Source: a virus | Strand: one strand, 5' to 3' | Length of the DNA: 64,000 bases | Virus record (IMG/VR): IMGVR_UViG_3300025093_000009 | Location: 52,158 to 116,157 of that record | Shown: piece after piece, positions 4,901 through 50,052 of the stretch | Layout of the letters: every line of letters starts with the position of its first letter | Position numbering within the stretch: the stretch's first letter is position 1 | Notes under the pieces: model-generated | Database searches by the model: none | Seen by the model: the letters and a program-made list of their open reading frames with translations, nothing else | Told to the model about the DNA's origin: nothing | Translations under genes and position numbers: made by a program

Positions 4901-7900
4901 ATGAGGGGTTGTGTGGAACTTATTGATCCAGATAAACCAGAAACTTTTAAGTATTCAACTAGCCCAATATTTAGTGGTGATGTTTCTATTAATAGATATA
5001 CTGAAAAGTGTATTATGCCAATCTTTACAAGATTTTTACAAGGTCAACCAAATGGTTATTCTTTTGATTACAGCTTATATGTTAACATACCTTACCCAAG
5101 ATTTTGGCTTAATTCAACTAAGTTTGATATAAGTGGTATTGCACGTGAGATAGCTACATTAGGTTTAGATCCAGGAAGTTATGCACAAGAACTTCCTACT
5201 AATAAATATTATTTAGATAGAGGTTATGATAACTGTCAAGATACAAGTTTATTTGGTAGTTTCTTTGGTGGTGGAAATGATTTAAATCCTGCATGGAATA
5301 TGGAGTATGCTTATATGTATACACATATTAATGGTGTTAATGAGTTTTTTGTAGAATCAGAAATTAATCTGGCATATAGAGATTGGGAAGATATGCCAAG
5401 TAAAAGGTTTTATGATCCTTATGAGTTTAATGACTTAGGTGTATTATTTCATCCTGACCAAATTAAAGATGACAACTTTTATAAGTATGATGATTCATTA
5501 TCTGCTTCTAAGTTCCCAACTCAATTGGGATCATTCGGTCAAGTACAAGCAAGAGACTATGATCCACTAGTTGCAGAGACGTGTTACACTTCATATCCTA
5601 AAAGACTAGTATACTCATTACAAGCACAAGAAGAATCAAAAAGAGATTATTGGAGAGTATTCTTAAACAATAATTATAAAGACTTTAAGAATGAAGTAAG
5701 TGTTATTAAGCCTATTAATAAAAGTGGTGCATTAATATTTTTCCCATACTTATCACCTCAAATGTTCCAAGGTCTAGATACTTTGAAAACACAATTAGAT
5801 ACTAAATTAACTATAGGTGATGGTGGTTTATTTAGTCAACCATTTCAAAATGTAGCAAATGCAGATGTATCTAATGAGTATGGATCTTGTGAAAGTTTAA
5901 GAGGTGTTACAAATACTCCATTTGGTTTATTCTTTATTTCACAACAACAAGGTAAAATATTTAATTATGCTGGTAAGGGATTAACACCAATATCTAATGC
6001 AGGTATGAAATGGTGGTTTAATAAATACTTACCATCTAGATTTATAAAACAATTCCCTGAATCTGAAAACACTCATTGGGTAGATAACCCAGTAGCTGGT
6101 GTAGGTTGTCAAGTAATATGTGATGTAGTTGATGATATAGTCTACTTTATGAAAAAAGACTACCAACTTAAGCCAGAATATGTTGCAGGTGCTGAGTTTA
6201 ATAACTATGATGCAAAGCCTGTAGGAATTGATGTACCATGGCAAAATAAAAAGCTATTAGTAGATATAGGTGATCCATTATACTTTGATGATTGTTCTTG
6301 GACTATTAGTTATGATCCTAAAGCAAAGGCTTGGATATCATTTCATGATTGGCATCCTGAATTAGCTTTACCTAGTATAAATCATTTCTTTACTACTAAG
6401 ACAACAACTACAACTGTTCCTCAGTGTCCACCGGGTTATAACTTTAATCCTACAACTAATATGTGTGAGATAGGTGTTAATGAAAGTTCACCTGCTCAAG
6501 TTATAATAGATAATATAGCAGCTACTGTTAGTGGTGGTCCTGTTGCTTGTTTAGTTGATGTTGTAATTTCAATGGATGTATCAGGTAGTACACTTAATAG
6601 TGGTAGACAAGCGGCTCAACAAACTTGGATGACTGCATTTTTAACAGATCCACAGATAGTCACTTTAATGAACAATAGCCAAATGCAAATTGGATTTGTT
6701 GCTTGGGATGATAATAGTAATATTATGAGTATGCCTGATGGTAGTGGAGGTACTGTTACAATGAGTCATACTGTAACTGAGCCACAAGCTACAACCTTTT
6801 TTACCAATAACTGGTCTGCTGGTGGTACTAACGTAGGAATGGGATTAAATGTAGGTAATTCAGTACTCACTAATCCAGCTAATTCTACATTGGGCGATAG
6901 AACAGCAAATCCTAACTATAGAGCTATTCAAATCCTTGTTACAGATACTACTACAGCACCAGGAAATAATGTAGGTGCTCCTTACACTTCTGTAGGCGCT
7001 GGTACTGCACCTGCGTATCAATTTGTTTATGCAATGTTTTGTGGAGCTAATAGCTCTGCTCCACCAAACCCTAATGTATTAGATGATATATCTATGTCAG
7101 CTGGTCCTGTAAATGTTGATCCATTCCAATATGGTATAAACGCATCAGATCCAACAACGTTCCAAGCTGTAGCAACAGCTATTGCAGGAGCCGTATGTGG
7201 TACAGATTATGAATGTGAATGTCCTGCAGGTTATACATTAGTTTATCCTGATTCTAATGGTCTATTTACTCAATCAAGTGGAACATGTACTGATGTACCA
7301 GGAGAAGCGCCTATTTGTAGAAAAGTAGAATGTGAGTGTCCAACAAGTACAGTTCCTGGCTCAACTACAACAACATCAGGTACATGTCCAGATAGTGCTC
7401 CTGAATTATTTTTAATAGGTGATCCAGCATGGATTGATCCATCACCATTAATATGTAACTATTTTTATTTTGATAGTACTACACCTAATTATCAAGTAGG
7501 TGGTTTTTGGAGACATAATCATAGGTGTGATTCATTTGCTAATTTTTATAATGTAGATTATCCGTGGGAGATTGATTTAATATCTAACACAGGACAAGCT
7601 GTAAACACTATAAGAAGTTTTGAGTATCAACTAGAAACCTATGTATATAAAGGAGATCCTCAATATAATATGTGTGGTGGTGATAAATGGGAAGATCTTA
7701 CATTTAATTTTGATGCTGCTATTATTTATAATAATGATCAAACATCAGGATTACTGGTACTTAATGAGCAACCTGTAAATAGTCCATGGGCTAACTTAGA
7801 CTATCCTATTGTAACACCAAACAATATAGAGATACTTGTATCTAAAGTTGAACATAAGTTTAGGTTTAATCAGTTCTGGGATGTTACAAATGACAGAGGT

Positions 7901-8116
7901 GAATTTACAAATGCAGAACAACCAATATTTAATACGGATTGTAATGGATATGTTAGACCATTAAATACAACTAATCTTAATTACTTCAAACCTCAAACAG
8001 AGCGTAAGAAATTTAGACATTATTCTAATCATGTTTTATTACGTAGAAATAATTCTGGCAATAGAAAAATGATGTTAAGATTAAATAATACTAAACTATT
8101 ACTATCTAAAAGATAA
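1958..8116 (+). CDS. tail stabilization/muzzle protein (P22 gp10-like) with inserted vWA domain
   Basis: 2052 aa. N-terminal 'NSFTKGMNKD' and C-terminal 'SWTISYDPKAKAWISFHDWHP' are characteristic of crAss Tstab/muzzle proteins. MIDAS motif DVSGS near 6576. Confidence 0.8.
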   Translation: MAKKKNTTPQPRGQGSSSVNTNSFTKGMNKDVAPSFEQPNAWWHARNAVNNSEDGDVGLIGNEPSNLSCGVIPYTVIGAIHRYGDEWVVFSTDDINSEIGRFDDSECTYETLVNDPCLNFKKKYLITGAAKENFDCTWEVYWDDANNPSRAMNIDDIPWKKVKISGPDVNGDPCVEYQIIEPKQLDCEQIRLAPLLDTPCVKLSKATDGGMIRNGTYQAFVAYVENEQRVTDYIGISNLQTIFSHEGGNGSLDISITNLDQDYFYYELVILRRNQGQTSAKRIGLYSTEQSDINIDFIDEALIPIDLKQIPLRSPAYEKSESMFVVNDWLIRQGPTEQFDFNYQPIANQIQTNWVVNQLSAKYYTLGGNKLGFMRDEQYAFFIRWIYNTGERSSSYHIPGRAPESYTLPNGVSYQENEIINGANVINTDEGEPLFKVYNTASFTQTNINEPQEDNSLVIARGKMGYWESTELYPSNRPDIWGDLCGKPIRHHKMPDESLGGADSPLHISTTNGDNINIVGVEFTNIGRPTNNDGTFIENIVGYEILRGSRQGARSILAKGMFKNMRKYRIPDSENILGESQGLYPNYPYNSLEDDIFFFDAGPDPNSEDTRTGGCDNFTQSLDKYPPLSGYTKDVFTFSAPDLMFTKPFLNAYETKIYGSINGKSQGTFIPSEDHPQFKLLRPVAANLAAIIGLGYALNAVQGTESVNTKALQINNQAYAPFIGVSSSTGYPTFATAGGVSLSLFGLIEGFLINSLLDGITDVADLYSGGVASQIKKEAINTSNMIKASAIPGAYGGGRDMTSTFDKPEGALPTALKVIISISMAQKNIAIGAGEIIDLFYNLVSEHDFVYKYNSTGFYNSFTKVNPNNIFRTKNNDSNYIGSSFQTFDGIKYKINNLFRPSTIAVSTANELDDPAGPKDNSRFSLGGTVVNGGTVDFLNSYMLNPRSADRLQRNISALYGALKFNFDNQYGQLDGVKQIMMRGCVELIDPDKPETFKYSTSPIFSGDVSINRYTEKCIMPIFTRFLQGQPNGYSFDYSLYVNIPYPRFWLNSTKFDISGIAREIATLGLDPGSYAQELPTNKYYLDRGYDNCQDTSLFGSFFGGGNDLNPAWNMEYAYMYTHINGVNEFFVESEINLAYRDWEDMPSKRFYDPYEFNDLGVLFHPDQIKDDNFYKYDDSLSASKFPTQLGSFGQVQARDYDPLVAETCYTSYPKRLVYSLQAQEESKRDYWRVFLNNNYKDFKNEVSVIKPINKSGALIFFPYLSPQMFQGLDTLKTQLDTKLTIGDGGLFSQPFQNVANADVSNEYGSCESLRGVTNTPFGLFFISQQQGKIFNYAGKGLTPISNAGMKWWFNKYLPSRFIKQFPESENTHWVDNPVAGVGCQVICDVVDDIVYFMKKDYQLKPEYVAGAEFNNYDAKPVGIDVPWQNKKLLVDIGDPLYFDDCSWTISYDPKAKAWISFHDWHPELALPSINHFFTTKTTTTTVPQCPPGYNFNPTTNMCEIGVNESSPAQVIIDNIAATVSGGPVACLVDVVISMDVSGSTLNSGRQAAQQTWMTAFLTDPQIVTLMNNSQMQIGFVAWDDNSNIMSMPDGSGGTVTMSHTVTEPQATTFFTNNWSAGGTNVGMGLNVGNSVLTNPANSTLGDRTANPNYRAIQILVTDTTTAPGNNVGAPYTSVGAGTAPAYQFVYAMFCGANSSAPPNPNVLDDISMSAGPVNVDPFQYGINASDPTTFQAVATAIAGAVCGTDYECECPAGYTLVYPDSNGLFTQSSGTCTDVPGEAPICRKVECECPTSTVPGSTTTTSGTCPDSAPELFLIGDPAWIDPSPLICNYFYFDSTTPNYQVGGFWRHNHRCDSFANFYNVDYPWEIDLISNTGQAVNTIRSFEYQLETYVYKGDPQYNMCGGDKWEDLTFNFDAAIIYNNDQTSGLLVLNEQPVNSPWANLDYPIVTPNNIEILVSKVEHKFRFNQFWDVTNDRGEFTNAEQPIFNTDCNGYVRPLNTTNLNYFKPQTERKKFRHYSNHVLLRRNNSGNRKMMLRLNNTKLLLSKR

Positions 8117-11100
8117 TGAAGAAGAAATTTACACATACAGAGAGAAGAGGATTACCTGGAGGACCTAATGAATACATTACTCATGTTAGTGGTTTATTCA
8201 GTGTTGAAGGTTATAAATCAGATAGCCCTGATAAAAACAATCCGTTTAATCTTATTGACTCAGGAAATATCACAATGGAAGGTGTTGAATTTCCAGTTAT
8301 GGGTATAGATAATCTTGGTAATGCAGAAATGATGCTGCCTCAAAACAATTATGAATTTCCTGGTGATATGGTTTTAGAAATACCTATGGCACAGGATGGT
8401 GATGAAACTCCAATGGCAACTCAAATGTTAGATGAGGTTGTAGTTACAGCACCTAAGAAAAAACAAAGTTTATTTAGTAAAGTGGGTCACGGTGTTTTAG
8501 ATGGGCTTGGTTTAATTCCTGGACTTGGTGAAATAGCAGATGGCGCTAATGCACTTTGGTATCTTGCTGAAGGTGATAAGATGAATGCGGGCTTATCTGC
8601 CGCTGCAATGATTCCATTTATAGGCTGGGGTGCAACAGCTGGTAAACTTGGTTTAAAAGGAAAGAAAGCTTTAGATGCTGCTAATACAGCAAGACAATTA
8701 TCAAAGGCAGATTTAAATTATGCTAAAAGTTTAGGTTTAGATGTAAAAGATTATAATAACCTTGTTGATCAATATAATGCTTCTAATAAAACATATAGAT
8801 CAGTGAGTCCTCAAGCTGATGTATTAAATGATATAAATTTTAGAAAGGCTGCAGAAAAAGCTGGTATTGATTTTAGCAAAACTGCAACAGATAATACAGA
8901 TCTTCTTAAATATATGAGTACATCCATACCATATAAGAAATTAGGTAATGTATATACAGATGCTGCAGTTAAAGGTACTAATGATGCAAGATCATTTTTA
9001 TTTACTTCACCCAATAAACAATTTACATCTTTTTATGCACCTGATGGGTACATGGCTAAGATGCCTTTATTTACTGATGATATAAATAAATTAAGCATAC
9101 CAGAAATAACAAACAGAATTAAGTTTGGATCTAGAGCAAGTGAGTATCCATTTGATGCATTGTTGGATAATCCATATATGCAGAATACTCTTAAATCAGG
9201 AACAAGAGTTTCTATGCCTCCAGCAAGTAAATTGGGTGTGCAAGAAAATACTGTTCAATTTATAGGTGATAGAGGACAAAGGCTTTTTGATCCTAACACG
9301 GTTGAAATATTACCAGTTGGAGAAGCACTTAAAAATCCAAATTTCCAAAAAGGTAAAGAGGTTCCACCAGAAAAATGGCAGGATACAATTAATTATATTG
9401 ATGAAAATAAATTAAAAAGAGCAATTGCTGAAGCAGAAAGTTTAAATGGGCAGTTAATGAAAAACCCATACTCTACGGCATCTGGATTATACGGTCAACG
9501 TTTTTCAGAACTAGAGAAAGGAAAATTATATGATGGTACAAGAGATCAGTTTATAAAAGATTTAGATGCACAAAATAGAATATTTGATATGAGATTAAAT
9601 GAAGGTGTTAAAGTAAATAAAACAACACCTTTACTAAAGGATGCATATGATCTTATGAATGAATACAAACCTCAAATAAAAGATTTTGATTTTGATTACT
9701 ATGATATAATCTCATTATCAAACTTTTTAGGTAGACAAGGTACCAGAGAATTTTTTGGAAATGTAATCAGGGATGGTAAAGATTTATCAGAGGTATTTCC
9801 TAATTTATATGGACCTAATGTTAAACAACCAAACAAAACACCTCAAGAATATTTAGGTATTACAAGAAAGTATTACAGACAATATGCTGGTGAAATTCCT
9901 GTTATTGCTCAAGATAACACAAGAGTTAATATGCCAACAATACCTATCATTGATAAAAAGCCTGCACCTACCTCACGTTATTCTGATTTACTATTTACAG
10001 AAAATGATTTTGATATTATAGGTGATGATAAGGATGAATTCAATCCTTTTGATACTATACCAATTGATACATTAGAAATACAAAGAGATAACACAAATGT
10101 TGTTGACACAAATATATTACCAGAGTATTTGCAAAAATATGAAAAGATAAAAGGACCTAATTTTTCAGATGAAGAATTTAAAAATATACTATTTGATGTT
10201 TCACAAGAGTCTGAGTTTAATGAATATCAAGATCCAGTACTAATAGCTGATTTTATTAAAAAGTCTAATTTTTATGCAGAAGGGTGGAAAGATATGACTA
10301 GTGCTGCTCCTAATGAGGTAAAGGATTTACAAGATGTATTAGTTAGAAAAGGTTATGACATAGGCCCAACAGGTGTAGATGGAAAATATGGTCCAAAAAC
10401 ATATGCTGCACATAGAGCAATGGTTGATGATATTAATTTAAATCCAAATGCTATATCAAGATATTATAAAAAATATGGTGCAAACAATTCATCTGAAGTA
10501 AGAGGTATTCAAGAGAAATTAGTTAAGCTTGGTTATATGTCTGAAACATTACCTAATAAAAATACTACTAGTATTGATGGTAAGTTTGGTGATCAGACTA
10601 GAGAAGCACTAGAAAGATATAACACAGAAAATGCAAAAGATGATCCTAAAGCTACAGTCTTTAATGATATACCAAATCTATTAGAAGAAGATAGATGTGC
10701 TGCAGGTATGTGTGTAATACTTGAGAGAAATAATGTTCTTACAGAAGCTATAGGTGTTAAGTACAAAGATGCATGGGATTTATATGAATCTATGGAAAAC
10801 GCAGATAATAGTGAAATGGTCTATAATATATATGATGATCCAAGATTTAACAGAATCAATGAAGAAACAGATATAAATGATCTAAGAAAGATTACTAAAA
10901 ATGTAAAAAAAGAATCACAAACAAAAGCTAGTGATTATGCTATAGGAGATATTGTAGGTTTATTTTGGGATGGTTCATCACATCATGCAGAAACATTAAA
11001 ATCAAAAACTTATAATACACACAGTGGATTTGTTTCTGATATAGTAGATGGTGTTCCTATTATAACACATAATGTAAATGGTAGAGTATTACAACAACCA

Positions 11101-12192
11101 TATGATCAACTTACTACTGCTTGGATTAGAAGACCAAATGAAGATGTAGAAGTAAGATCTAAATATAATGAAACTGCTGTAACAGAAGCAGATGGTGAAG
11201 TACCTAATTATAATGCTATTAATAATCTTCAATTAAGATATAATACTCAGTTTGAGGGAGAACGTTTAAATGAAGTTGAAACTATATTTAAGAGAGCAAA
11301 ATATAATTCTCATAAGATACCAGAAATTTTAAATTCTGATGTTGATCAAGACTGGCTTGAGTCAGCAACAGTTGCTATAACAGGTGTTGAGTCAGGTATA
11401 GGTTTAAATGCACCAAGAACTGTAGAAGAAGCTAGAGATGATTATTTTGGTTTGAAAGGTGTTGCATATGATATTAAAGATAAAACAGAAGCAGATATAT
11501 CATTAGGTGTAGGAAAAACTAAATTTGCTTCTTTAGATAAATTTGCTAGAGAATATTTTGATATAAATAGTCCAAAAGATTTAGCTAATGATACAAAAGC
11601 AGTTGATGCTATAAGCTATACTCTTACTAAAAATTATGAGTTATTTAAAGATTATGCAGAACAGTATCCAACTTTAGGTTTAACTGAAGAAGATATTAGA
11701 AACATGGCTGTATTAGCATATAACCAAGGAACAAATAAACTTATTAATACAGGAAGAGTTGATGATACAAGAACACCTGAAGAAGAAGTAGAAGAACTTA
11801 GAAAACTATATAATGCTACCCTAGCGGATAGAAGTTCTACTAACTATAGATTTTTACCTGAAATTGTATATGATGTTGCTTTAGCTACTGGTATAGAAGA
11901 AAAGTCACCAAGTTATATTAATAAGGTTAATACATATATAAATGATTTATATCCTTCACAAGTAGCTGATGCTGGTGCTAATTTAAATAATCAAACTCCT
12001 AGAATTTTAGCAAAAGGTGGAGAGTACGGTATATATAAAAATTACATTGAAGGGTTATATGATGATACTGACAAAATACAATTTGCAGAACATATATATG
12101 ATAAACTAAATAGGAGACACTATAAACAAGCAAAAAATGCAGCAATGGCTGCTCCAAACTTTATAATGACAAACATAATTAGGAATTCTTAA
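8116..12192 (+). CDS. multidomain virion cargo protein: PT-TG pre-toxin domain, putative toxin, two lysozyme-like domains, two peptidoglycan-binding domains, CHAP/NlpC-like peptidase
   Basis: PT-TG-like 'LDGLGLIPGLGEIADGANALWYLAEGD..NAGLSAAAMIPFIGWG'. Lysozyme-like 'AEAES...STASGLYG' and 'GVESG...AYNQG'. PG_binding_1-like 'EVKDLQDVL..KGY...VDGKYGPKT' and 'EVRGIQEKL..LGY...IDGKFGDQT'. CHAP-like 'CAAG...GDIVGL...HSGFV'. Confidence 0.75.
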   Translation: MKKKFTHTERRGLPGGPNEYITHVSGLFSVEGYKSDSPDKNNPFNLIDSGNITMEGVEFPVMGIDNLGNAEMMLPQNNYEFPGDMVLEIPMAQDGDETPMATQMLDEVVVTAPKKKQSLFSKVGHGVLDGLGLIPGLGEIADGANALWYLAEGDKMNAGLSAAAMIPFIGWGATAGKLGLKGKKALDAANTARQLSKADLNYAKSLGLDVKDYNNLVDQYNASNKTYRSVSPQADVLNDINFRKAAEKAGIDFSKTATDNTDLLKYMSTSIPYKKLGNVYTDAAVKGTNDARSFLFTSPNKQFTSFYAPDGYMAKMPLFTDDINKLSIPEITNRIKFGSRASEYPFDALLDNPYMQNTLKSGTRVSMPPASKLGVQENTVQFIGDRGQRLFDPNTVEILPVGEALKNPNFQKGKEVPPEKWQDTINYIDENKLKRAIAEAESLNGQLMKNPYSTASGLYGQRFSELEKGKLYDGTRDQFIKDLDAQNRIFDMRLNEGVKVNKTTPLLKDAYDLMNEYKPQIKDFDFDYYDIISLSNFLGRQGTREFFGNVIRDGKDLSEVFPNLYGPNVKQPNKTPQEYLGITRKYYRQYAGEIPVIAQDNTRVNMPTIPIIDKKPAPTSRYSDLLFTENDFDIIGDDKDEFNPFDTIPIDTLEIQRDNTNVVDTNILPEYLQKYEKIKGPNFSDEEFKNILFDVSQESEFNEYQDPVLIADFIKKSNFYAEGWKDMTSAAPNEVKDLQDVLVRKGYDIGPTGVDGKYGPKTYAAHRAMVDDINLNPNAISRYYKKYGANNSSEVRGIQEKLVKLGYMSETLPNKNTTSIDGKFGDQTREALERYNTENAKDDPKATVFNDIPNLLEEDRCAAGMCVILERNNVLTEAIGVKYKDAWDLYESMENADNSEMVYNIYDDPRFNRINEETDINDLRKITKNVKKESQTKASDYAIGDIVGLFWDGSSHHAETLKSKTYNTHSGFVSDIVDGVPIITHNVNGRVLQQPYDQLTTAWIRRPNEDVEVRSKYNETAVTEADGEVPNYNAINNLQLRYNTQFEGERLNEVETIFKRAKYNSHKIPEILNSDVDQDWLESATVAITGVESGIGLNAPRTVEEARDDYFGLKGVAYDIKDKTEADISLGVGKTKFASLDKFAREYFDINSPKDLANDTKAVDAISYTLTKNYELFKDYAEQYPTLGLTEEDIRNMAVLAYNQGTNKLINTGRVDDTRTPEEEVEELRKLYNATLADRSSTNYRFLPEIVYDVALATGIEEKSPSYINKVNTYINDLYPSQVADAGANLNNQTPRILAKGGEYGIYKNYIEGLYDDTDKIQFAEHIYDKLNRRHYKQAKNAAMAAPNFIMTNIIRNS

Positions 12193-12222
12193 ACCATAAA
12201 GATTAGCGAATCTCCTTAATTA

Positions 12223-12232
12223 TTTGTATATT
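12223..12232 (+). promoter_or_regulatory. repeated intergenic motif TTTGTATATT (putative phage late promoter)
   Basis: The identical 10-mer also occurs at 47312 and 47387, all intergenic and upstream of plus-strand operons. Confidence 0.5.
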
Positions 12233-12243
12233 AATAATATAAT

Positions 12244-14967
12244 ATGATGAACGTGGATTTAAACAAAAAAAGTGTAAAACAGCAGGGTGGTCAGCAAATG
12301 ATTCCTAATGAACCTGGTATGCAACAGCAACCGCAGGTTGATCCACAGGTTATGCAAATAGCTGAAATGTTCAACCAATCAATAGAATCTGGCCAAAAAC
12401 CAGAAGAAGTTGTTGTTATGCTTATGGAACAAGGGGCTGATCAAAATATTATAGGTCAAGCACTTATGCAAGTAGGTATGGCTCAAGAAGATGTGGTTGT
12501 TATTTTTGAAAACGTACAAAAAATGCAACAACCTAAAGCACCTACAGCTGAACAAATTACAAATAATCCACAACAACTGGCTAGAGAAGAAGAGATACAA
12601 GAGGATGCACCTAATATGGATATACCTATTGATCCTATAGAGATGGCTAAATCAGGTATTGAAATTAAGCCTGAGAATAAAGGTAAGTTTACTAGATGGG
12701 CTAAAGCACGTGGTATGTCAGTTGCTCAAGCATATAAAAAAGTATTAGCTAATAAAGAAAAGTATCCTCCTTCTGTAGTTAAGATGGCAAACTTTGCACG
12801 TAATGCAGCTGGTTGGAAAAAAGGACAAGAAGGTGTTGAAATGCCAAGTGAAGGTTTACCTGTACAAGATCCATCTGTTTTGCAAAGAATGCAAATTAAA
12901 CTTCGTGACTTAATAAAAAGTAATGAAGTAAGCCAGGCTCCATATGATATACAAGGTATGATTCCTCCAGGTTACGTACCAAATCCAATGCAAACATTTG
13001 AATTTAGAGATGCAAATCAAAATGGTATTGAAGATAGGGATGAAGGTATTTATAAACAAAGAGATTTAATACGTGAAGAAGATTTACCTAAAGGAAAGGC
13101 AATAGGAAGAACTTTTTGGGGAAAAAGCAGTGGTGTACCTTGGCCTACTATGGATATTCCGGGCAAATATGCTCAACCTAAATTACAAGGTGGGGGTGAT
13201 AATTATGATGCTGTAAAAGCTGCAATGCTTCAGGGAGACAAAGTAGGAACAGACATGCAAAATCAATTGGCATCTTTTATGAACCAAGTTAATTTTGTTG
13301 ATACAAGTAAACCTAAAGAAAAAGACAATAGAAACTTTATTGACAAAGGACAAGATGAAGGCGTATTAAATCCAGGACCATTATATGTAAATCCAGCTAT
13401 ATATAATAATAACAAATTTAATCTAGGTAAAGCAGCAAATGTTTTATTAGAGGGTTATGAAAATATGTTTAGCGGTAAGGATAAAGATGGTGATGGTGTC
13501 AAAGATGGAAGCTTTAGAGATTGGAGAGGTAAGGCTATAAAGAATAAGTTGGATAAATATAGAAATGCAACTTATACTATAAACTATGATGGTAGTGCGG
13601 AGAACATTCAAGCTATGAAAGATTTCCAAACTCAATTTATGAAAGAAAATCAAGATTCAACACCAGAAGAATTAATTGAAAATACAGCAAAATATACAGA
13701 ACAAGGTTTTCTTGATGGTATAGAGAATTTAAATTTAGATCCTAAAATAAAAACTTTTTTAACTAAAAGTACAGAGGGAATGTCTGATGCTGCAATACAG
13801 GCATATCAAGATCTTAGAGCTAAGATATTAAAAGACCGTGGTATAGAAATAGAAGAAGATACTTCAGTAGAAGTAGAAGATACTACAGTAGAAGATACTA
13901 AAGTAAATGAAACTGATCCTAATTTTATAGGACCACCAGAAGCTCCTACTGATGAAGATATAGATGAAGATATAGTAATTAAATATGGTGCTGAAGTATT
14001 ACCTAAAGCATTATTTGGTTTTGGTAAAAGAGCAAGACAAGCTAAACAAAAGATAAAAGAAGATCCAATATCATTTGCAAGACTAATGGCAGGAGATGTA
14101 ACAGCTGCAACTGCATTTATGCAAACAGGTGGTGCGCCATTTGCAGATCAAACACTTACTTTTCAAGAATGGTTTATGCAAGATCCTATAACTAGAAGTG
14201 GACCAAACGCTCAGCAAGAATATGAAGCCTATGTTCAACAACAAGAAGGTCCACAATTAGGTCCTGTACAAACAGATACACCTTCATTAGAGGATGCAAA
14301 TACTGGTACTTATTCACCAATGGTAGATAAAGATAAAGATGGTATTCCTGATTATATAGATATTGATGGTGGTGATGGATCAGGGAAAGGTGCTCCAGGT
14401 ACTGTAGATCCATCCCCTTCTGCGGAAGAACTCTATGCAAAAATTAAGAAACCTGAAGTAGATGTAAATACAGGAGGTTTAAAAGGATTTTTAGATAGAG
14501 TTAAGAACAGCACTGTTGCTACAGCATTTGGTGATGTTTCTGATTTTGCTGTTAAAGCTGCAGATGTAGCTAATGATTACTTTGCTCAAAAAGAGCAAGA
14601 AGAGGCAATGGATGATTTGAGAGTAAGTTTATCTGCAGATAATATATATGGTACAAAAACAGATGCCTTTAATAAAAGAGGAACGTTTGATGTAAACACA
14701 GGTATAATGGGTAGTGAAGGTGACGCAACTACTGGATTATATCTTACAAAAAAAGGTGGAGAGTTTAAACCACATATGATGTATGATCCTAAAAATGGTA
14801 AAGGGTATATGGCTAATAAGATGGAGGATCATTTAAGAATGAAAGAAATGGGTTACCTACATAAAGAAGAGTTAGGCAAAGCTAAACAAGGTGGAGAAAC
14901 AGTTAGTGTTGATTCAGCAATGTTAGCAAAACTAATTGCAGCGGGAGCTGACATAGAAATGTTATAA
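12244..14967 (+). CDS. virion cargo protein (low complexity, modular)
   Basis: 907 aa, Q/M-rich. Contains the crAss cargo module 'GIEIKPENKGKFT...KMANFARNAAGW', DxDxDG motifs and a 'FKPHMMYDPK...DHLRMKEMGY' mini-domain. Confidence 0.65.
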   Translation: MMNVDLNKKSVKQQGGQQMIPNEPGMQQQPQVDPQVMQIAEMFNQSIESGQKPEEVVVMLMEQGADQNIIGQALMQVGMAQEDVVVIFENVQKMQQPKAPTAEQITNNPQQLAREEEIQEDAPNMDIPIDPIEMAKSGIEIKPENKGKFTRWAKARGMSVAQAYKKVLANKEKYPPSVVKMANFARNAAGWKKGQEGVEMPSEGLPVQDPSVLQRMQIKLRDLIKSNEVSQAPYDIQGMIPPGYVPNPMQTFEFRDANQNGIEDRDEGIYKQRDLIREEDLPKGKAIGRTFWGKSSGVPWPTMDIPGKYAQPKLQGGGDNYDAVKAAMLQGDKVGTDMQNQLASFMNQVNFVDTSKPKEKDNRNFIDKGQDEGVLNPGPLYVNPAIYNNNKFNLGKAANVLLEGYENMFSGKDKDGDGVKDGSFRDWRGKAIKNKLDKYRNATYTINYDGSAENIQAMKDFQTQFMKENQDSTPEELIENTAKYTEQGFLDGIENLNLDPKIKTFLTKSTEGMSDAAIQAYQDLRAKILKDRGIEIEEDTSVEVEDTTVEDTKVNETDPNFIGPPEAPTDEDIDEDIVIKYGAEVLPKALFGFGKRARQAKQKIKEDPISFARLMAGDVTAATAFMQTGGAPFADQTLTFQEWFMQDPITRSGPNAQQEYEAYVQQQEGPQLGPVQTDTPSLEDANTGTYSPMVDKDKDGIPDYIDIDGGDGSGKGAPGTVDPSPSAEELYAKIKKPEVDVNTGGLKGFLDRVKNSTVATAFGDVSDFAVKAADVANDYFAQKEQEEAMDDLRVSLSADNIYGTKTDAFNKRGTFDVNTGIMGSEGDATTGLYLTKKGGEFKPHMMYDPKNGKGYMANKMEDHLRMKEMGYLHKEELGKAKQGGETVSVDSAMLAKLIAAGADIEML

Positions 14968-14969
14968 TT

Positions 14970-17903
14970 ATGGCAAAAATTAAAATAAATAAATTACCAA
15001 AAGGATTTAAGTTAGTTGACGGCAAAGTAGTTGAAGACAAACTTATGCAACGTGGTGGTGGGCTTACATCTGGTGATCAAGCTGATTATGGTTTGGTTAC
15101 AACTCCAGAACAATATTATGGTCTTACAAATTTTAATAATACACAAGATGAGACTGTAAGATATTCTTTAGGTGCTGTACCTAGAGATGAAGCTAATTTA
15201 GAAGCTGAGGGTGGAGAAACTGTATTAACAGATTTAAATAATGATGGTATGTTTGGTCTTTACAATATTACAGGACCAAGACATAACAGAGGTGGAGTAC
15301 CAATGTTTTTACCAGAACAGTCTTTTGTTTTTTCTGATACAAGAGCTTTAAGAATGAGCCCTGATGAAATGCAAGAGTTTGGTATAGGTGGTAGTAGAAA
15401 AACGCCAGCTGTACTTTCTAGACGTTTTGGATTACAAGATTATTATGCTGAATTAGACTCACAGTATGCTGATGATATTTCTGCTAGAAGTGCAGAGCTT
15501 ATGTTGCAAAAAAATATGGGAGATTTATCTAAGCTTGCCTTTATACAAGAAGCAAAAAAAGATTTCCAAGACGGTGTACCATTAGCATCATACCCATACT
15601 TAGCATCTATAGGAGAAGACCCTATAGCATTTACAGCTAAGATGGAAGAGATATCAGAACAAAAAGCTCAAGAAAGAGCATTCCAAGCTTTACCACCTGA
15701 GCAACAACAACAGATATTAATGTTGCAAGAGTTTATGGCACAACAGCAAATGTCACAAGAAGGCATGCCTCCACAAGGTATGGAACAACAAATGCAACCA
15801 CAACAACCAACAGCTCAACAACAAGAGTTGGGTATGGCAATAGCTAATAATGATATGCTAATGACTGCTCAGTTTGGTACTGAAATGGGTGATTTCTTAG
15901 GTAAAGCTGGTTTAACTAAATATCAAAAGAAAGGTGAGACAGCTTCTCAATATGCTAAAAGAAAAGGACAAAGTTGGCCAGAAGGTGCAAAAGATCCTAC
16001 ATTTGATGGCAAAGTATGGCAGTTTCCAGATGGAACACCACCATTAGACAAACAAGCTGCAAGAACTTTAGCTATAGCAGTTGCAACTGGTAGTCCAATA
16101 CCACCTCAGTATATGAAAGATACTAATGCTTCTGATAATACTGAATCATCTACACAAGATGAAGAAGTAACTATTAATGAAAATGAAGAACTTAATACTG
16201 AAGATCAAACTGTAGAGGTTAAAGAAACTAAAGTAGTATCTGAAAACCAGGTTGATAAAGTTGAGTCAGGTAACAATCCGTTTAAAGAAGGTTCAGCTAA
16301 TTATAAAAAGCATAATGAATATGTAAATGGTGGATATACACCTACTATCATAACAGAAAATGGTAAGAAAAGAGTTAAATATGTTAGACCTGCAACAGAG
16401 TTTGATTATAGTCAATATGCAGACAGGCTTAAAAATGTAACAAAGACTGAAGTTAAAGGATCAGATGGTAAAACATATTCTGTTTATTCTGATGATGTAA
16501 CTGGTCAGCAGCAAATAACCAATGAGTCTGGTGCTGCCATATTTATACCAGGATTATATTCTGCATCTGATTCACCTGTTACACAATACAGTAATAGATA
16601 CGGATTTGGTTCTGATGAATTTTTTGAAGATAAATCAAAAGAAGATTTTTATTTTAGAAATAAAGCAATCATTGATAAAATTCCTGACTTTCAATTTAAG
16701 ATGGAAAGAGATGCTGATGGGGATAAAAAGACTGATCAAGCATATATTGATAACTGGCTTAAGTTTCAAAACGCATATGAGGATGAGCGTAAGAAATACA
16801 TGGAAGCTCAAGGCCTTACTTACATTCCTTACTTTATTTCTGATGAAGAGTTTAAAGCTCATCCAGAAAAATATGACAAAGATGGAGATGGTAAGATAGA
16901 TGATGACTTTAAGAAAAGAAGACTAGATGGTAAAGCAGGTGTATTTACTATAAATGCTCCTGGTTTTGATATAGGTTATGAACCTGGAGATACACAGTAT
17001 TTAGATGTACCAGATGATCCAAAAACACCACCTATACCAAAAGATACACCACTTCCTCCAAGAGAATGGTGGCAGCAGGACATTAATAATTTATTGACTC
17101 TTAATGCAATAGAGGATGAGTTGTTTTTACCGTGGGCTCCTGAGTTAGAAGATCAAAAGATAGATTATGTATTAGATGACTATACAGGAAGAGTAAATGC
17201 TAATCTAGCAGCTCAGAATGTAATGGCTAATGCATTAGGTGCTTATGGTCCACAAGCTATTGCTAGAAGTGATATACAAGGTAAAACTTTAGATGCAAAT
17301 GCTAAAGCTATAAACCAAGTAAATCAGAATAATGTTAGAACAATGAACCGTGTTGCAGCTTTACAACCTCAGCTTGATATGAAAGTTGATATACAAAATG
17401 CTAAAACACAAAAAGGTTTATATGATGATACTGTAACTGCATTACAACAAGCTCAGAATTTTGATAATTGGAAAACTGCTAAGTATAATGAATTGTATAA
17501 TACAGGATTGACTAATGCAGCTAATACTTACAACCTCAATACTTTATATGATACTTATAATGTAGATCCAAGGTCTGGTGGTTATGTAGAGTTTACTCCT
17601 GATGGTAGAATGTTATATAAAGATAGTTCAGCTGATCAAGAACAAATTAGAATTGAAAGACTACAAAAGCTTCAAGAATTATTTCCAGGTAAAGCTCATG
17701 AAAATTATCCTATAGTATATGGTGATAATGTAAATGCTACAGAAGGTATGACAAATGCTCAAGTTGAGGCACAACGAAGAGGTGGTTTTCCATCTTATAG
17801 TCCAACAGGTAATGTTAATGTAAACCAAGGTAAAAAAGGAACAGAAGTAAAAAAGAAATATAGAAAAGCATTCCCGTTTTCAGTGGGACAGATGGGTTAT
17901 TAA
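14970..17903 (+). CDS. virion cargo protein
   Basis: 977 aa. 'ANLEAEGGETV...GPRHNRGGVP...VFSD' N-terminal module is typical of crAss cargo proteins. Q-rich linker. Confidence 0.65.
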   Translation: MAKIKINKLPKGFKLVDGKVVEDKLMQRGGGLTSGDQADYGLVTTPEQYYGLTNFNNTQDETVRYSLGAVPRDEANLEAEGGETVLTDLNNDGMFGLYNITGPRHNRGGVPMFLPEQSFVFSDTRALRMSPDEMQEFGIGGSRKTPAVLSRRFGLQDYYAELDSQYADDISARSAELMLQKNMGDLSKLAFIQEAKKDFQDGVPLASYPYLASIGEDPIAFTAKMEEISEQKAQERAFQALPPEQQQQILMLQEFMAQQQMSQEGMPPQGMEQQMQPQQPTAQQQELGMAIANNDMLMTAQFGTEMGDFLGKAGLTKYQKKGETASQYAKRKGQSWPEGAKDPTFDGKVWQFPDGTPPLDKQAARTLAIAVATGSPIPPQYMKDTNASDNTESSTQDEEVTINENEELNTEDQTVEVKETKVVSENQVDKVESGNNPFKEGSANYKKHNEYVNGGYTPTIITENGKKRVKYVRPATEFDYSQYADRLKNVTKTEVKGSDGKTYSVYSDDVTGQQQITNESGAAIFIPGLYSASDSPVTQYSNRYGFGSDEFFEDKSKEDFYFRNKAIIDKIPDFQFKMERDADGDKKTDQAYIDNWLKFQNAYEDERKKYMEAQGLTYIPYFISDEEFKAHPEKYDKDGDGKIDDDFKKRRLDGKAGVFTINAPGFDIGYEPGDTQYLDVPDDPKTPPIPKDTPLPPREWWQQDINNLLTLNAIEDELFLPWAPELEDQKIDYVLDDYTGRVNANLAAQNVMANALGAYGPQAIARSDIQGKTLDANAKAINQVNQNNVRTMNRVAALQPQLDMKVDIQNAKTQKGLYDDTVTALQQAQNFDNWKTAKYNELYNTGLTNAANTYNLNTLYDTYNVDPRSGGYVEFTPDGRMLYKDSSADQEQIRIERLQKLQELFPGKAHENYPIVYGDNVNATEGMTNAQVEAQRRGGFPSYSPTGNVNVNQGKKGTEVKKKYRKAFPFSVGQMGY

Positions 17904-48062: not shown

Positions 48063-48287
48063 ATGGGTAAGAAAAAACATCAGGGTTTAAAACCTCAAAA
48101 AATGACAAGACAACAAAGTAAACTGCTTATGAGAATAGGTGGTGAACTTGCTGAAGAAGATATTATGCTTGGATCTATTACTCAAAAAATGAGAAAAGGT
48201 GGCGGTGCAGAAAGAATTGTAAAAGATTCAAAAGGCAGAGAAAAAAAACAGCAATATAAAATGGGAGGTTGGACCCACTCAGAATAA
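48063..48287 (+). CDS. small basic protein with three xxGG motifs
   Basis: 74 aa with LMRIGGE, KMRKGGG and QYKMGGW. Confidence 0.65.
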   Translation: MGKKKHQGLKPQKMTRQQSKLLMRIGGELAEEDIMLGSITQKMRKGGGAERIVKDSKGREKKQQYKMGGWTHSE

Positions 48288-49791: not shown

Positions 49792-50052
49792 ATGGGCATG
49801 CATAAAAAATATAGTAAAGGCGGATCAAAAGGAGCAAAAGCTCTAATGGCTGCTCTAAAAGCAAAAGGTTATAAACGTGGTGGTTCATTTGGTGATGGTC
49901 TAACTCATGAGTATTCAAGAGACATGAATATGAAGAGAATGGCAGCTGGTGGAGGCTTGAAAGGTTTTATGGCCGGTGGTAGCACATATGACGGTATGGA
50001 ATATGGTGATGCTAAATTTGGGAAATCAATGAAAAAGAAAAAAAGAAAGTAA
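49792..50052 (+). CDS. small basic protein with five xxGG-type motifs
   Basis: 86 aa with KYSKGG, GYKRGG, RMAAGG, GFMAGG, DAKFG and a poly-K tail. Confidence 0.65.
   Translation: MGMHKKYSKGGSKGAKALMAALKAKGYKRGGSFGDGLTHEYSRDMNMKRMAAGGGLKGFMAGGSTYDGMEYGDAKFGKSMKKKKRK

What the first reader, a model, noticed from the sequence alone, without database searches (positions are those of the whole stretch)
8380..17850. Dispersed short 'xxGG(E)' peptide motif brackets the modules of the cargo proteins: candidate capsid-loading or processing signal
Seen: a degenerate motif [K/R/P]-[Φ/A]-[Q/K/A]-x-G-[G/x]-[E/x] recurs through the three cargo genes. ORF 8116 has PMAQDG (8383), NFQKGKE (9340), RQYAGE (9877) and LAKGGE (12007). 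ORF 12244 has KQQGG, MAKSG, KGQEG, KLQGGG, IKYGAE, KALFG, FMQTGG, TKKGGE and AKQGGE. ORF 14970 has MQRGGG, AQFGTE, YQKKGE and GKKGTE. In ORF 8116 the copies fall at domain junctions (head module | PT-TG+toxin | lysozyme | PGBD-CHAP-lysozyme | tail). In ORF 12244 copies flank the 'GIEIKPENKGKF...AAGW' module and the 'FKPHMMYDPK' module. Inference: these ORFs are polyproteins of exchangeable effector cassettes, and the motif is either a prohead-protease cleavage site (compare double-glycine leaders) or a capsid-targeting tag that gets any tagged domain packaged and injected. I know of no functional description of this motif, but the literature was not searched.
Basis: partly seen in the sequence, partly recalled or inferred. 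Interest (0 to 1): 0.85.

Follow-up and report, generated by a model that had tools for sequence, protein, structure and literature searches.

The report
Joint peptide between phage cargo modules
The short 'xxGG(E)' strings are weak local copies of a real, conserved linker peptide that joins swappable modules (mostly cell-wall enzymes) in three proteins this marine crAss-like phage probably injects; what reads the peptide (a cutting enzyme or a docking site) is still unknown.

Summary
Observation confirmed and sharpened. All 17 strings exist at the stated coordinates. The consensus as written is not enriched in the window (4 hits vs 3.2 in shuffles). About 50 related 110-116 kb marine phage genomes show the true motif: [K/R]-[Y/F]-G-G-x-L-P-[K/M]-A-Q-x-G(-x-E), with a short form h-x-[K/Q]-x-G-G-E.

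P[KM]AQxG occurs 54 times in the three variable gene classes (ORF 8116-, 12244- and 14970-like). It occurs 0 times in 115,000 residues of the three flanking virion gene classes.

At least 11 of the 17 strings lie on columns conserved in 9-30 diverged relatives. In AlphaFold models, all 13 strings of ORFs 12244 and 14970 fall in or at the edge of low-confidence linkers.

Modules are gained, lost and moved between genes at the motif. A 94%-identical relative carries one extra 90-residue module inserted exactly between two motif copies. Codons vary as background, so selection acts on the peptide.

No classical head protease is encoded. A conserved zincin-like HExxH domain sits in the co-packaged giant ORF 21262 and in crAss001 gp47.

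In crAss001 cargo protein gp45, [Y/F]GG sites bracket the two cryo-EM-resolved pieces.

Cutting site versus docking handle remains open. This scan found the same motif earlier on other DNA (e1-5968706).

The parts
1958..8116 (+). Muzzle-protein homologue (2052 aa). It marks the upstream border of the cargo gene block and has no motif copies.
   Evidence: Collinear BLASTP matches to crAss001 gp44 (E 2e-5 and 0.002). 0 motif copies in 25 orthologues.
8116..12192 (+). ORF 8116 (1358 aa): variable cargo protein with conserved N- and C-terminal modules and a replaceable middle.
   Evidence: Orthologues range from 406 to 2276 aa and share only the ends. Pfam across 29 orthologues: LysM, SLT, PG_binding_1, YkuD and others.
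8149..8403 (+). Conserved N-terminal module of ORF 8116 (residues 12-96), ending in the joint E-I-P-M-A-Q-D-G-D-E (PMAQDG at 8383-8400).
   Evidence: 71% identity to L004, with the alignment stopping at the motif. The column consensus is E-v-P-M-A-q-x-G-x-e, followed by unrelated sequence in 25 orthologues.
9340..9360 (+). Joint NFQKGKE (residues 409-415): the site of a recent gain or loss of one module.
   Evidence: The 94%-identical relative has a 90-residue module between NFQKGRE-VP and KPKMQKGQE-TP. The window sequence is left junction plus right junction, with the crossover inside CAAAAAGGT..AGAG..CCA.
9877..9894 (+). RQYAGE (residues 588-593): a weaker copy.
   Evidence: 5 relatives show YY-x-Q-Y-G-G-E at this site.
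10288..10635 (+). Two peptidoglycan-binding repeats (residues 725-840), the only cassette of ORF 8116 confirmed by profile.
   Evidence: PF01471, E 4.8e-11; PF09374, E 5.7e-5.
12007..12177 (+). Joint LAKGGE (12007-12024) opening the conserved C-terminal module of ORF 8116 (residues 1300-1354).
   Evidence: G1301 and G1302 are conserved in >=90% of orthologues and E in >=50%. They are followed by YKNYIxGxYDGT..YDKLNRxHYKxAK..PNYIMT.
12244..14967 (+). ORF 12244 (907 aa): variable cargo protein and partial counterpart of crAss001 C1 (gp45).
   Evidence: Residues 129-191 match gp45 residues 364-423 (E 2e-5). Orthologues range from 478 to 1307 aa.
12277..12291 (+). KQQGG (residues 12-16).
   Evidence: S-V-K-Q-Q-G-G in 16 relatives. 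Q13, G15 and G16 are >=90% conserved. Lies in pLDDT<50 segment 1-28.
12643..12834 (+). KGKFT..AAGW module (residues 140-191), bracketed by MAKSG (12643-12657) and KGQEG (12820-12834).
   Evidence: The module is confident (pLDDT 75-94) and the two brackets lie in low-confidence segments 121-139 and 192-209. MAKSGIE is seen in 22 relatives and GWKKEEGG in 22. The same bracketing occurs in crAss001 gp45.
13180..13197 (+). KLQGGG (residues 313-318): unconfirmed copy.
   Evidence: No relative covers the site. It lies in the long low-confidence stretch 225-335.
13978..14019 (+).
   Evidence: The only relative reads RYGGEELPQALFG. It matches the family profile [KR]YGG-x-LP-K-A-x-x-G and lies in low-confidence segment 537-600.
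14116..14133 (+). FMQTGG (residues 625-630).
   Evidence: Relatives read P-M-A-Q-N-G-G-Q-P here. Lies in low-confidence segment 621-635.
14746..14898 (+). PHMMYDP mini-module (residues 841-873), bracketed by TKKGGE (14746-14763) and AKQGGE (14881-14898).
   Evidence: K-x-G-G-E-F in 27 relatives and (MAKAQ)QGGE[TI] in 30. The module is found in about 100 other viral contigs, where acidic residues replace the GGE.
14899..14964 (+). Conserved C-terminal tail of ORF 12244 (..VDSxMLAKLIAAGADIExL).
   Evidence: Invariant columns L894, L897, A900-I904 and L907.
14970..17903 (+). ORF 14970 (977 aa): cargo protein with conserved N-terminal (1-250) and C-terminal halves and a variable middle.
   Evidence: Alignment A2. 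No fold match.
15045..15062 (+). MQRGGG (residues 26-31).
   Evidence: G29 and G30 are invariant in 31 sequences. V-M-[QRK]-x-G-G in 29 relatives. Lies in low-confidence segment 25-33.
15867..15938 (+). AQFGTE (15867-15884) and YQKKGE (15921-15938): a double joint at the start of the variable middle.
   Evidence: M-A-[QR]-F-G-[TS]-E in 13 relatives. The second site reads K-A-Q-x-G-x-E in many. They lie in or at the edge of low-confidence segment 259-317.
17829..17846 (+). GKKGTE (residues 954-959) near the C-terminus.
   Evidence: [KR]-K-G-K-E-[IV]-K in 12 relatives. G957 is invariant. Lies in low-confidence segment 938-977.
27262..28311 (+). Candidate reader of the motif: a zincin-like region of the giant ORF 21262 (residues 2001-2350), with Y-H-E-A-F-H at 27631-27648 and E-E-Y-M-A-D about 60 residues later.
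   Evidence: Invariant in 47 dereplicated relatives and in 5 genomes not selected by that pattern. Homologous to crAss001 gp47 (E 3e-12). No peptidase activity has been shown.

Best explanation
SHOWN
- The strings are degenerate local copies of a short linear motif shared by a large family of marine crAss-like phages.
- The full form is [K/R]-[Y/F]-G-G-x-L-P-[K/M]-A-Q-x-G(-x-E). The short form is h-x-[K/Q]-x-G-G-E.
- It lies in unstructured linkers between independently folding modules.
- It occurs only in the three variable proteins encoded between the muzzle gene and the giant RNA-polymerase-associated gene. This is where crAss001 encodes its packaged and ejected cargo proteins.
- It is the in-frame joint at which modules are gained, lost and moved between these genes.
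- It is held by selection on the peptide, not on the DNA.

INFERRED
- Because the peptide itself is conserved next to unrelated modules, some partner must read it.
- My preferred reading (about 35%) is a processing site. The string of modules is packed and threaded through the tail as one chain. It is then cut at the joints into separate cell-wall enzymes and effectors, inside the particle or after ejection.
- The peptidase would travel with the cargo. The best candidate is the conserved zincin-like HExxH domain of ORF 21262 (crAss001 gp47).
- The conserved N- and C-terminal modules of each protein, not the joints, would carry the packaging information.
For: Motif specificity:
- 54 vs 0 copies between gene classes.
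- At least 120 further IMG/VR stretches; all 127 distinct sites are in frame in long ORFs.

Position in linkers and at joints:
- 13 of 13 strings in or at the edge of pLDDT<50 segments. For the 9 strings of ORF 12244 alone, the chance is 0.47^9, about 0.001.
- Block ends are enriched 3.7-fold at the motif.
- The N-module ends and the C-module starts at the motif.

Cassette exchange:
- Cross-class modules.
- One-module indel between two motif copies in a 94% relative, with the crossover inside the motif DNA.

Peptide-level selection:
- 11 DNA versions of PKAQ; pairwise identity 0.876 vs 0.855 expected.

Cargo context:
- ORF 1958 matches muzzle gp44.
- ORF 12244 shares a module with C1 gp45.
- ORF 21262 matches gp47.
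- gp45, gp46 and gp47 are virion proteins (PMC10172136).

For cutting in particular:
- The HExxH plus a downstream Glu pair are conserved in 47+5 relatives and in gp47.
- Iyer et al. 2017 predict processing of packaged multidomain proteins by embedded zincins (PMC5512222).
- In crAss001, 12 copies of gp45 residues 214-245 sit in the tail and 12 copies of residues 425-552 sit in the capsid. [Y/F/D]GG sites lie at 208, 331, 371, 426 and 561.
- Cutting between residues 245 and 425 would remove the need for 12 chains to cross the portal. This last point is my inference.
- The modules include periplasm-acting wall enzymes.
Against: - There is no direct evidence of cleavage anywhere.
- The crAss001 portal-bound domain is modelled from residue 425, so it includes A-F-G-G. 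There is therefore no cut directly after GG at that site.
- The crAss001 authors assume an intact chain and detected peptides from residues 275-320.
- N4 vRNAP has an HExxH subdomain yet is packaged unprocessed (PMC5512222; PMC13434306).
- The HExxH domain here has no Pfam hit and no fold check. The protein-atlas lead to LPD1 is weak.
- Natural gene splits (L084, L120) fall about 30 residues from a motif, not at it.
- Low pLDDT partly follows from the Gly-rich composition and a shallow alignment.
Confidence: 0.4

Rival explanations
1. Docking handle, not cut. The joint peptide (or the [Y/F]GG core) is a short linear motif that binds a repeated site inside the particle, such as the portal wing, tail-barrel rings or capsid wall. 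This pins successive modules of an intact chain in an ordered array for packing and ordered ejection.
For: - In crAss001 the two resolved, virion-bound pieces of gp45 begin at or next to [Y/F]GG sites: 208-213 before helix 214-245, and 426-428 inside domain 425-552. The domain ends 9 residues before the site at 561.
- The A-F-G-G at 425-428 is ordered at the portal.
- The motif is conserved as a peptide and sits in otherwise disordered linkers, as short linear motifs do.
- No classical protease is present.
Against: - The copy number per protein varies from 0 to 4 and does not match any symmetry.
- Whether the motif residues touch the portal or rings was not checked, because coordinates cannot be read with these tools.
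- Three of the five gp45 sites have no resolved density next to them.
- Conserved terminal modules already offer docking surfaces.
Confidence: 0.3
2. Passive joint. The motif is only a flexible, protease-resistant spacer. Its repeated coding sequence gives short homology for in-frame module shuffling. It persists because lineages that keep it diversify their cargo faster, and nothing reads it in trans.
For: - A real recombination event has its crossover inside the motif DNA.
- Block ends pile up at the motif.
- In this AT-rich genome, codon bias alone gives about 86% DNA identity between PKAQ copies.
- The window's own lineage tolerates very degenerate copies.
Against: - A spacer does not need L-P-K-A-Q to be fixed.
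- The same residues are kept next to unrelated modules and across at least 120 contigs.
- The [Y/F]GG core is kept as far away as crAss001.
- Synonymous sites are not constrained.
- Selection for evolvability alone is weak.
Confidence: 0.2
3. Classical maturation signal. The motif is a cleavage site of a T4/phiKZ-type or HK97-type prohead protease ([LI]xE or [SAG]xE), or a double-glycine leader removed by a C39 peptidase.
For: - Several window copies end in G-x-E (GGE, GTE, GAE, GKE), which resembles the S/A/G-x-E rule known for phiKZ (my own knowledge).
- Two copies lie 12-30 residues from an N-terminus.
Against: - No S78, ClpP, C39 or C5 family is found in the complete genome. No protease is found by PHROGs or Pfam in the head module. 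The S77 search was silent, but so was its control.
- Glu at that position is present in only 19-36% of canonical copies.
- Most copies are internal.
- The crAss001 atlas mentions no protease, cleavage or scaffold.
Confidence: 0.04
4. Chance or composition: loosely similar Gly-rich strings picked by eye from Gly/Lys/Gln-rich proteins.
For: - The stated regex is not enriched in the window.
- KLQGGG has no support in relatives. NFQKGKE and IKYGAE/KALFG each rest on one relative.
Against: - 54 vs 0 between gene classes, with shuffle expectation <=0.1.
- Conserved columns in up to 30 relatives.
- 127 in-frame sites from a DNA pattern scan.
Confidence: 0.02

Closest known systems
Polyvalent proteins of phages and conjugative elements (Iyer, Burroughs, Anand, de Souza, Aravind 2017; PMC5512222)
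   Same: - Large multidomain proteins with mosaic, fast-changing domain sets.
- Thought to be packed in the virion and delivered with the DNA.
- Predicted to be processed by an embedded zincin-like peptidase; the N4-type virion RNA polymerase is an example.
   Different: - That paper describes no conserved joint or linker peptide ('linker' occurs 0 times).
- Here the cassettes are mainly cell-wall modules rather than anti-restriction or nucleic-acid enzymes.
- Here both ends of each protein are conserved.
- Here the candidate peptidase sits on a neighbouring protein, not in the same chain.
Cargo proteins C1 (gp45) and C2 (gp46) of Bacteroides phage crAss001 (Bayfield et al. 2023; PMC10172136)
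   Same: - Same gene position between muzzle and RNA-polymerase-associated genes.
- ORF 12244 shares the KGKFT module with gp45, with the same GG brackets.
- gp45 has five [Y/F/D]GG sites that bracket its resolved segments.
   Different: - Homology is limited to about 60 residues.
- crAss001 lacks the L-P-K-A-Q-x-G half of the motif.
- crAss001 has two cargo genes where this phage has four (8116, 12244, 14970, 17963).
- The paper does not mention the motif or processing.
Junction motifs of polymorphic toxins (for example VENN of CdiA and pre-toxin domains such as PT-TG; Zhang et al. 2012, PMC3482391)
   Same: A short conserved peptide marks the border where variable cassettes are exchanged by recombination.
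   Different: - There, one C-terminal toxin tip varies behind a long constant part.
- Here, several internal cassettes vary between two constant ends, and the joint is repeated up to four times per protein.
- Delivery is by a phage particle, not a secretion system.
Gly-Gly-X polyprotein processing in large DNA viruses (adenovirus protease (M/I/L)XGG|X; African swine fever virus pp220/pp62), recalled from my own knowledge
   Same: Core polyproteins carried in the particle are cut at GG-containing sites by a protease that is itself packaged.
   Different: - No clan CE protease was found here (PF00770 only was tested).
- The hydrophobic residue sits at a different distance from the GG.
- Cleavage here is not shown.
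- This is a resemblance only.
T4 internal proteins with capsid-targeting sequence, and phiKZ inner-body proteins cut by gp21/gp175-type proteases (my own knowledge)
   Same: Ejected proteins carry a short signal tied to head assembly and proteolysis.
   Different: - No such protease gene is present.
- The signal here is internal and repeated, not an N-terminal leader.
- The required Glu is poorly conserved.

Membership tests
Polyvalent proteins (Iyer et al. 2017) | One polypeptide with several unrelated domains, encoded by a phage or conjugative element | tested here: met
   8116-like proteins carry LysM, SLT, PG_binding_1, YkuD, Amidase_2, Phage_lysozyme and Peptidase_M91 in varying sets. ORF 8116 itself has two PG-binding repeats.
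Polyvalent proteins (Iyer et al. 2017) | Mosaic architectures that differ between close relatives | tested here: met
   Lengths range from 406 to 2276 aa within one syntenic gene. Modules are shared across genes. A one-module indel separates the window from a 94% relative.
Polyvalent proteins (Iyer et al. 2017) | Embedded or associated zincin-like (MPTase) peptidase for processing | tested here: inconclusive
   HExxH plus a downstream Glu pair is conserved in ORF 21262 and relatives and in crAss001 gp47. There is no Pfam hit, the fold was not checked and no activity is known.
Polyvalent proteins (Iyer et al. 2017) | Packaged in the virion and delivered into the host | not testable with these tools
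   Inferred only from synteny with crAss001 virion proteins.
Crassvirus cargo proteins C1/C2 (Bayfield et al. 2023) | Encoded between the muzzle gene and the RNA-polymerase-associated genes | tested here: met
   ORF 1958 matches gp44. ORF 21262 matches gp47. The gene order is conserved in about 50 relatives.
Crassvirus cargo proteins C1/C2 (Bayfield et al. 2023) | Sequence homology to gp45 or gp46 | tested here: inconclusive
   ORF 12244 matches gp45 only over a 60-residue module (E 2e-5). ORF 14970 has no match to gp46.
T4/phiKZ-type prohead protease system | A prohead protease gene (S77, or S78/ClpP type) in the head module | tested here: not met
   PHROGs and Pfam give no hit for genes between terminase and tail. 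Six-frame searches for PF04586 and PF00574 are negative with working controls. PF03420 is negative, but its control was silent.
T4/phiKZ-type prohead protease system | Cleavage consensus ending in Glu ([LI]xE or [SAG]xE) conserved at the sites | tested here: not met
   Glu two residues after the Gly is present in 36% of 70 anchored sites and 19% of 127 scan sites.
Double-glycine leader / C39 peptidase | C39 peptidase partner and an N-terminal leader ending in GG | tested here: not met
   PF03412 is absent with a working control. Most copies are internal.
Adenovirus/ASFV-type GG-X polyprotein processing | Packaged clan CE cysteine protease | tested here: not met
   PF00770 is absent. Only this one family of the clan was searched, and its control was weak.
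Polymorphic-toxin junction motifs (VENN, pre-toxin domains) | Conserved short motif at the border of recombining cassettes | tested here: met
   This concerns how it works, not membership by descent.
Polymorphic-toxin junction motifs (VENN, pre-toxin domains) | Variable part is a single C-terminal toxin with an adjacent immunity gene | tested here: not met
   The C-terminal modules are the conserved parts. The cassettes are internal. No small immunity-like ORF lies between the genes.

The most novel reading that the evidence does not exclude
The joint peptide is the recognition site of a particle-internal processing system. The zincin-like HExxH domain of the giant RNA-polymerase-associated cargo protein (ORF 21262; gp47 in crAss001) would cut the cargo polyproteins at [Y/F]GG-x-LPKAQ-x-G joints, inside the capsid or after ejection. 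This would release separate wall-degrading enzymes and effectors. It would also explain how parts of crAss001 C1 end up on both sides of the portal. Such a system would be a phage counterpart of adenovirus/ASFV core-polyprotein processing.
Probability: 0.2. Interest if true: 0.85.

Novelty: new variant of a known kind. Interest (0 to 1): 0.6.

Why it matters
Crassviruses and their marine relatives are among the most abundant phages. How their large protein cargo is packed, ordered and released is an open question raised by the crAss001 atlas.

A conserved joint peptide gives that question concrete handles:
- It defines the module borders in proteins that profile searches leave almost blank.
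- It explains how these phages re-tool their cell-wall-breaching kit by in-frame cassette exchange.
- It names specific residues, and one candidate peptidase domain, that can be mutated or searched for in existing virion mass-spectrometry data.
- It offers a simple sequence flag (GG-x-LPKAQ-x-G) for finding cargo genes in uncultured phage genomes.

Tried and rejected
- 4-mer enrichment per class is dominated by orthologous conservation. It was useful only because PKAQ/PMAQ stood out in two classes.
- Foldseek of both AlphaFold models against the PDB gave no significant match.
- The idea of a DNA-level recombination signal was rejected by the codon test.
- Gene fission as a proxy for cleavage was rejected: the splits in L084 and L120 are about 30 residues away from a motif.
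- The first conservation test of HExxH was biased, because FKYHEAFH was one of the search patterns. I repeated it on five genomes found another way.
- The DUF2201 metallopeptidase-VWA + MoxR pair at the genome start was considered as the reader of the motif. It lies in the replication-side gene block and there is no sign that it is packaged, so I rank it below the co-packaged HExxH domain.
- Ideas recalled from memory only (sortase LPXTG, transglutaminase K/Q cross-link, 3C-like Q|G cutting, thermolysin-type preference) had nothing to test and were not pursued.
- A literature search for 'LPKAQ' found no phage paper.


Full report
CONTEXT

The window is the last 64 kb of a single-contig, 116,157-bp phage genome rated 100% complete. 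Upstream lie the large terminase, portal and major capsid genes.

- The portal is 24-29% identical to portals of Crassvirales and of Cellulophaga phi4:1/phi17:2-type phages.
- ORF 1958 (2052 aa) matches the crAss001 muzzle protein gp44 at both ends.
- The HExxH region of ORF 21262 (4567 aa) matches the C-terminal part of crAss001 gp47 (E 3e-12).

The three ORFs of the finding (8116, 12244, 14970), together with ORF 17963, therefore occupy the slot in which crAss001 encodes its packaged cargo proteins C1 and C2. That they are packaged here is an inference from synteny.

THE OBSERVATION IN THE WINDOW

The stated consensus is too loose. As a regex it gives 4 hits against 3.2 in shuffles, and several listed strings do not fit it.

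A tighter core chosen after the fact is enriched. [KQ]xG[GAKTS]E occurs 6 times in the three ORFs (0.8 expected) and twice in the remaining 33,000 residues of the genome. Because that core was defined on the same data, I looked for independent support in relatives.

RELATIVES AND THE TRUE MOTIF

Searches seeded with the conserved ends of ORF 8116 and ORF 14970 brought in about 50 related genomes of 107-117 kb from marine and other environmental viromes. All have the same gene order: muzzle-like, 8116-like (406-2276 aa), 12244-like (478-1307 aa), 14970-like, 17963-like, 21262-like.

After dereplication (25-31 proteins per class), PKAQ/PMAQ stood out in a blind 4-mer count. Its contexts gave the profile [K/R]-[Y/F]-G-G-[S/E/D]-L-P-[K/M]-A-Q-x-G-x-E.

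- P[KM]AQxG occurs 30, 18 and 6 times in the three variable classes.
- It does not occur at all in 115,000 residues of the three flanking classes; shuffles give <=0.1.
- Copies per protein range from 0 to 4.
- All 127 distinct sites from that scan are in frame inside long open frames, with a median above 1000 residues.
- The unconstrained flanks reproduce [F/K/Y]-K-[Y/E/D] before the GG.

MAPPING THE 17 STRINGS

- Eleven strings lie on columns conserved in 9-30 diverged relatives. The columns read E[VI]PMAQxGxE, [ML]A[KQ]GGE, SVKQQGG, MAKSGIE, GWKKEEGG, KxGGEF, (MAKAQ)QGGE, VM[QRK]xGG, MA[QR]FG[TS]E, YQKKGET/KAQxGxE and [KR]KGKE.
- IKYGAE and KALFG are the two halves of one canonical site.
- RQYAGE and FMQTGG have weaker support.
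- KLQGGG has none.

ARE THEY AT JUNCTIONS?

Yes, by four lines of evidence.

1. In ORF 8116 the conserved N-terminal module (residues 12-96, 71% identical to a relative whose middle is unrelated) stops at E-I-P-M-A-Q-D-G. The conserved C-terminal module starts at K-G-G-E in all orthologues.
2. Across all pairs of family members, internal ends of similarity blocks lie within 5 residues of a motif in 6.7% of cases, against 1.8% for random positions. Block ends pile up 0-10 residues after a motif and block starts 0-10 residues before one. Part of this is expected, because the motif is itself an island of similarity. It still shows that homology on one side stops there.
3. AlphaFold models built on the orthologue alignments (mean pLDDT 57 and 66) place all nine strings of ORF 12244 inside pLDDT<50 segments. 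Five of them sit at the edge of a confident domain. The four strings of ORF 14970 fall inside or at the edge of such segments. Low confidence also follows from Gly-rich composition and a 30-sequence alignment, so this is supportive rather than decisive.
4. In crAss001 gp45, [Y/F/D]GG sites occur at residues 208, 331, 371, 426 and 561, while gp46, gp47, gp49 and gp50 have none. The two segments resolved by cryo-EM, 214-245 and 425-552, start right after or at such a site, and the second ends 9 residues before the next one. The KGKFT module that ORF 12244 shares with gp45 has the same brackets in both phages.

ARE THE MODULES EXCHANGEABLE?

Yes.

- Eighty-five similarity blocks link different gene classes, including a 289-residue block at 53% identity between an 8116-like and a 12244-like protein. 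Their edges carry Q-K-G-x-E, LPKAQDGxE or x-GG-E.
- The clearest case is the relative that is 94% identical to ORF 8116. It has one extra 90-residue module lying exactly between NFQKGRE-VP and KPKMQKGQE-TP, whereas the window reads NFQKGKE-VPPEKW.
- At the DNA level the window equals the relative's left junction upstream and its right junction downstream. The crossover lies inside the shared CAAAAAGGT..AGAG..CCA.
- The same module follows the PMAQxGxE-VP joint in other genomes.
- The cassettes of the 8116-like class are mainly cell-wall modules: LysM in 14 of 29 proteins, SLT in 11, PG_binding_1 in 9, YkuD in 8, and single cases of amidase, lysozyme and an M91 zincin. ORF 8116 itself shows only two PG-binding repeats by profile.

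WHAT KEEPS THE MOTIF?

Synonymous codons at P, K, A, Q and G follow background usage. PKAQ has 11 DNA versions, and pairwise identity is 0.876 against 0.855 expected. Selection is therefore on the peptide, not on a DNA site.

In this AT-rich genome a conserved peptide still yields enough DNA identity for the recombination seen above. A peptide kept next to unrelated modules, in disordered linkers, in three different genes and as far away as crAss001, behaves like a short linear motif that some partner reads.

WHO READS IT?

- PHROGs and Pfam find none among the head genes.
- Six-frame searches of the whole genome for S78, ClpP, C39 and C5 peptidases are negative with working controls. The S77 search was negative, but its control was silent.
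- The Glu needed for a T4/phiKZ-type site is present in only 19-36% of canonical copies.
- The crAss001 atlas never mentions a protease, cleavage or a scaffold.

Two other peptidase candidates exist.

- A DUF2201 metallopeptidase-VWA protein sits beside a MoxR-like ATPase in the replication-side block.
- More interesting is Y-H-E-A-F-H at residue 2125 of ORF 21262, followed about 60 residues later by E-E-Y-M-A-D.
  - Both are invariant in 47 dereplicated relatives.
  - That set was partly selected by the pattern FKYHEAFH, so I checked five genomes found another way. All five keep both features.
  - crAss001 gp47, a virion protein, has the same signature.
  - N4 vRNAP has a conserved HExxH subdomain at residues 2124-2375 (PMC13434306).
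  - Iyer et al. predicted that such embedded zincins process packaged multidomain proteins, while noting that N4 vRNAP itself is packaged unprocessed (PMC5512222).

CUTTING OR DOCKING?

No data here decide this.

For cutting:
- A co-packaged zincin-like domain is present.
- Wall enzymes and other modules are mixed in one chain.
- In crAss001, twelve copies of one part of gp45 sit in the tail and twelve copies of another part sit on the capsid side of the portal. The authors bridge these with 179 residues per chain through the portal. Two [F/D]GG sites lie in that bridge.

Against cutting:
- The portal-bound domain is modelled from residue 425, so it still carries A-F-G-G.
- Peptides from residues 275-320 were detected.
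- The mass spectrometry used one excised band, so it carries no size information either way.
- Natural gene splits in two relatives miss the motif by about 30 residues.

For docking:
- The resolved, virion-bound pieces begin at the motif.

My estimate:
- That the motif is a peptide-level joint of exchangeable cargo modules: about 0.9.
- Among readings of its function: processing site about 0.35, uncut docking handle about 0.3, passive spacer and recombination joint about 0.2, other about 0.15.

KNOWN OR NEW?

- The concept of mosaic multidomain virion-delivered proteins is known: polyvalent proteins (PMC5512222) and crassvirus cargo proteins (PMC10172136).
- A conserved, repeated joint peptide is not described in either paper. 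A full-text search for LPKAQ found no phage paper.
- This scan met the same motif earlier on another genome (note e1-5968706). I derived the consensus independently before reading that note, and its open question (docking tag or cutting site) stands.
  - the one-module indel with its crossover in the motif;
  - the codon test;
  - the link to the resolved segments of crAss001 gp45;
  - the conserved HExxH domain as a candidate reader.

LIMITS

- Orthologous positions inflate raw counts.
- Dereplication was by 5-mer overlap.
- The identity of most modules in ORFs 12244 and 14970 remains unknown.

Noticed in passing
window 14764-14862 (ORF 12244 residues 841-873): A His/Met-rich mini-module of about 35 residues, EFKPHMMYDPKTGKGYKA..H..M..MGYxH, recurs in about 100 IMG/VR contigs inside otherwise unrelated proteins of 80-1600 aa. 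The function is unknown; the H/M pattern hints at metal binding.
   Followed up: partly
window 27631-27648 and about 27810-27830 (ORF 21262 residues 2124-2129 and about 2188-2193): Invariant YHEAFH plus a downstream EEYMAD in the 4567-aa RNA-polymerase-associated giant protein. It is shared with crAss001 gp47 and is reminiscent of the HExxH subdomain of N4 vRNAP. There is no Pfam hit.
   Followed up: partly
Pfam confirms the two domains.
   Followed up: partly
L084:11252-11536 (relative of ORF 8116, residues 418-512): A mobile module of about 90 residues (VPKRxGxRxNxDGxESTHxMxTE..NWFSFPTLFQ..DGTWxDMS..FGEGSWKPKxQ). It is present in the 94% relative and in at least five other genomes at different positions, but absent from the window phage.
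   Followed up: yes
L084:14405-17061 and L120:6345-9925: The ORF 12244 orthologue is split into two ORFs at the same place (..NFVA stop, then M(K/E)R..) in two relatives. In L006 a 12244-like piece is fused into a 14970-like protein of 1571 aa.
   Followed up: partly
8116-like proteins of L125, L141, L145, L151, L156, L114 (for example L125:1923-7199): A Cys knuckle 'T-C-H-K-C-G-G' sits directly in front of LPKAQ in about seven proteins. Several relatives also carry 'K-C-N-S-C-x-W-x-W-K-A-A' just after the N-module joint. This may be a small zinc-binding cassette.
   Followed up: no
window 48063-48287 and 49792-50052: Two small ORFs (74 and 86 aa) beside the holin gene carry K/R-x-G-G strings (RIGGE, RKGGG, KMGGW; KRGGS). 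It is unclear whether they relate to the cargo motif.
   Followed up: no
L082:12563-13885 (genome 31563-32888): The 441-aa ORF between the portal and major capsid genes has no PHROG or Pfam hit. This is the usual place for a scaffold or protease, and it is worth folding.
   Followed up: no
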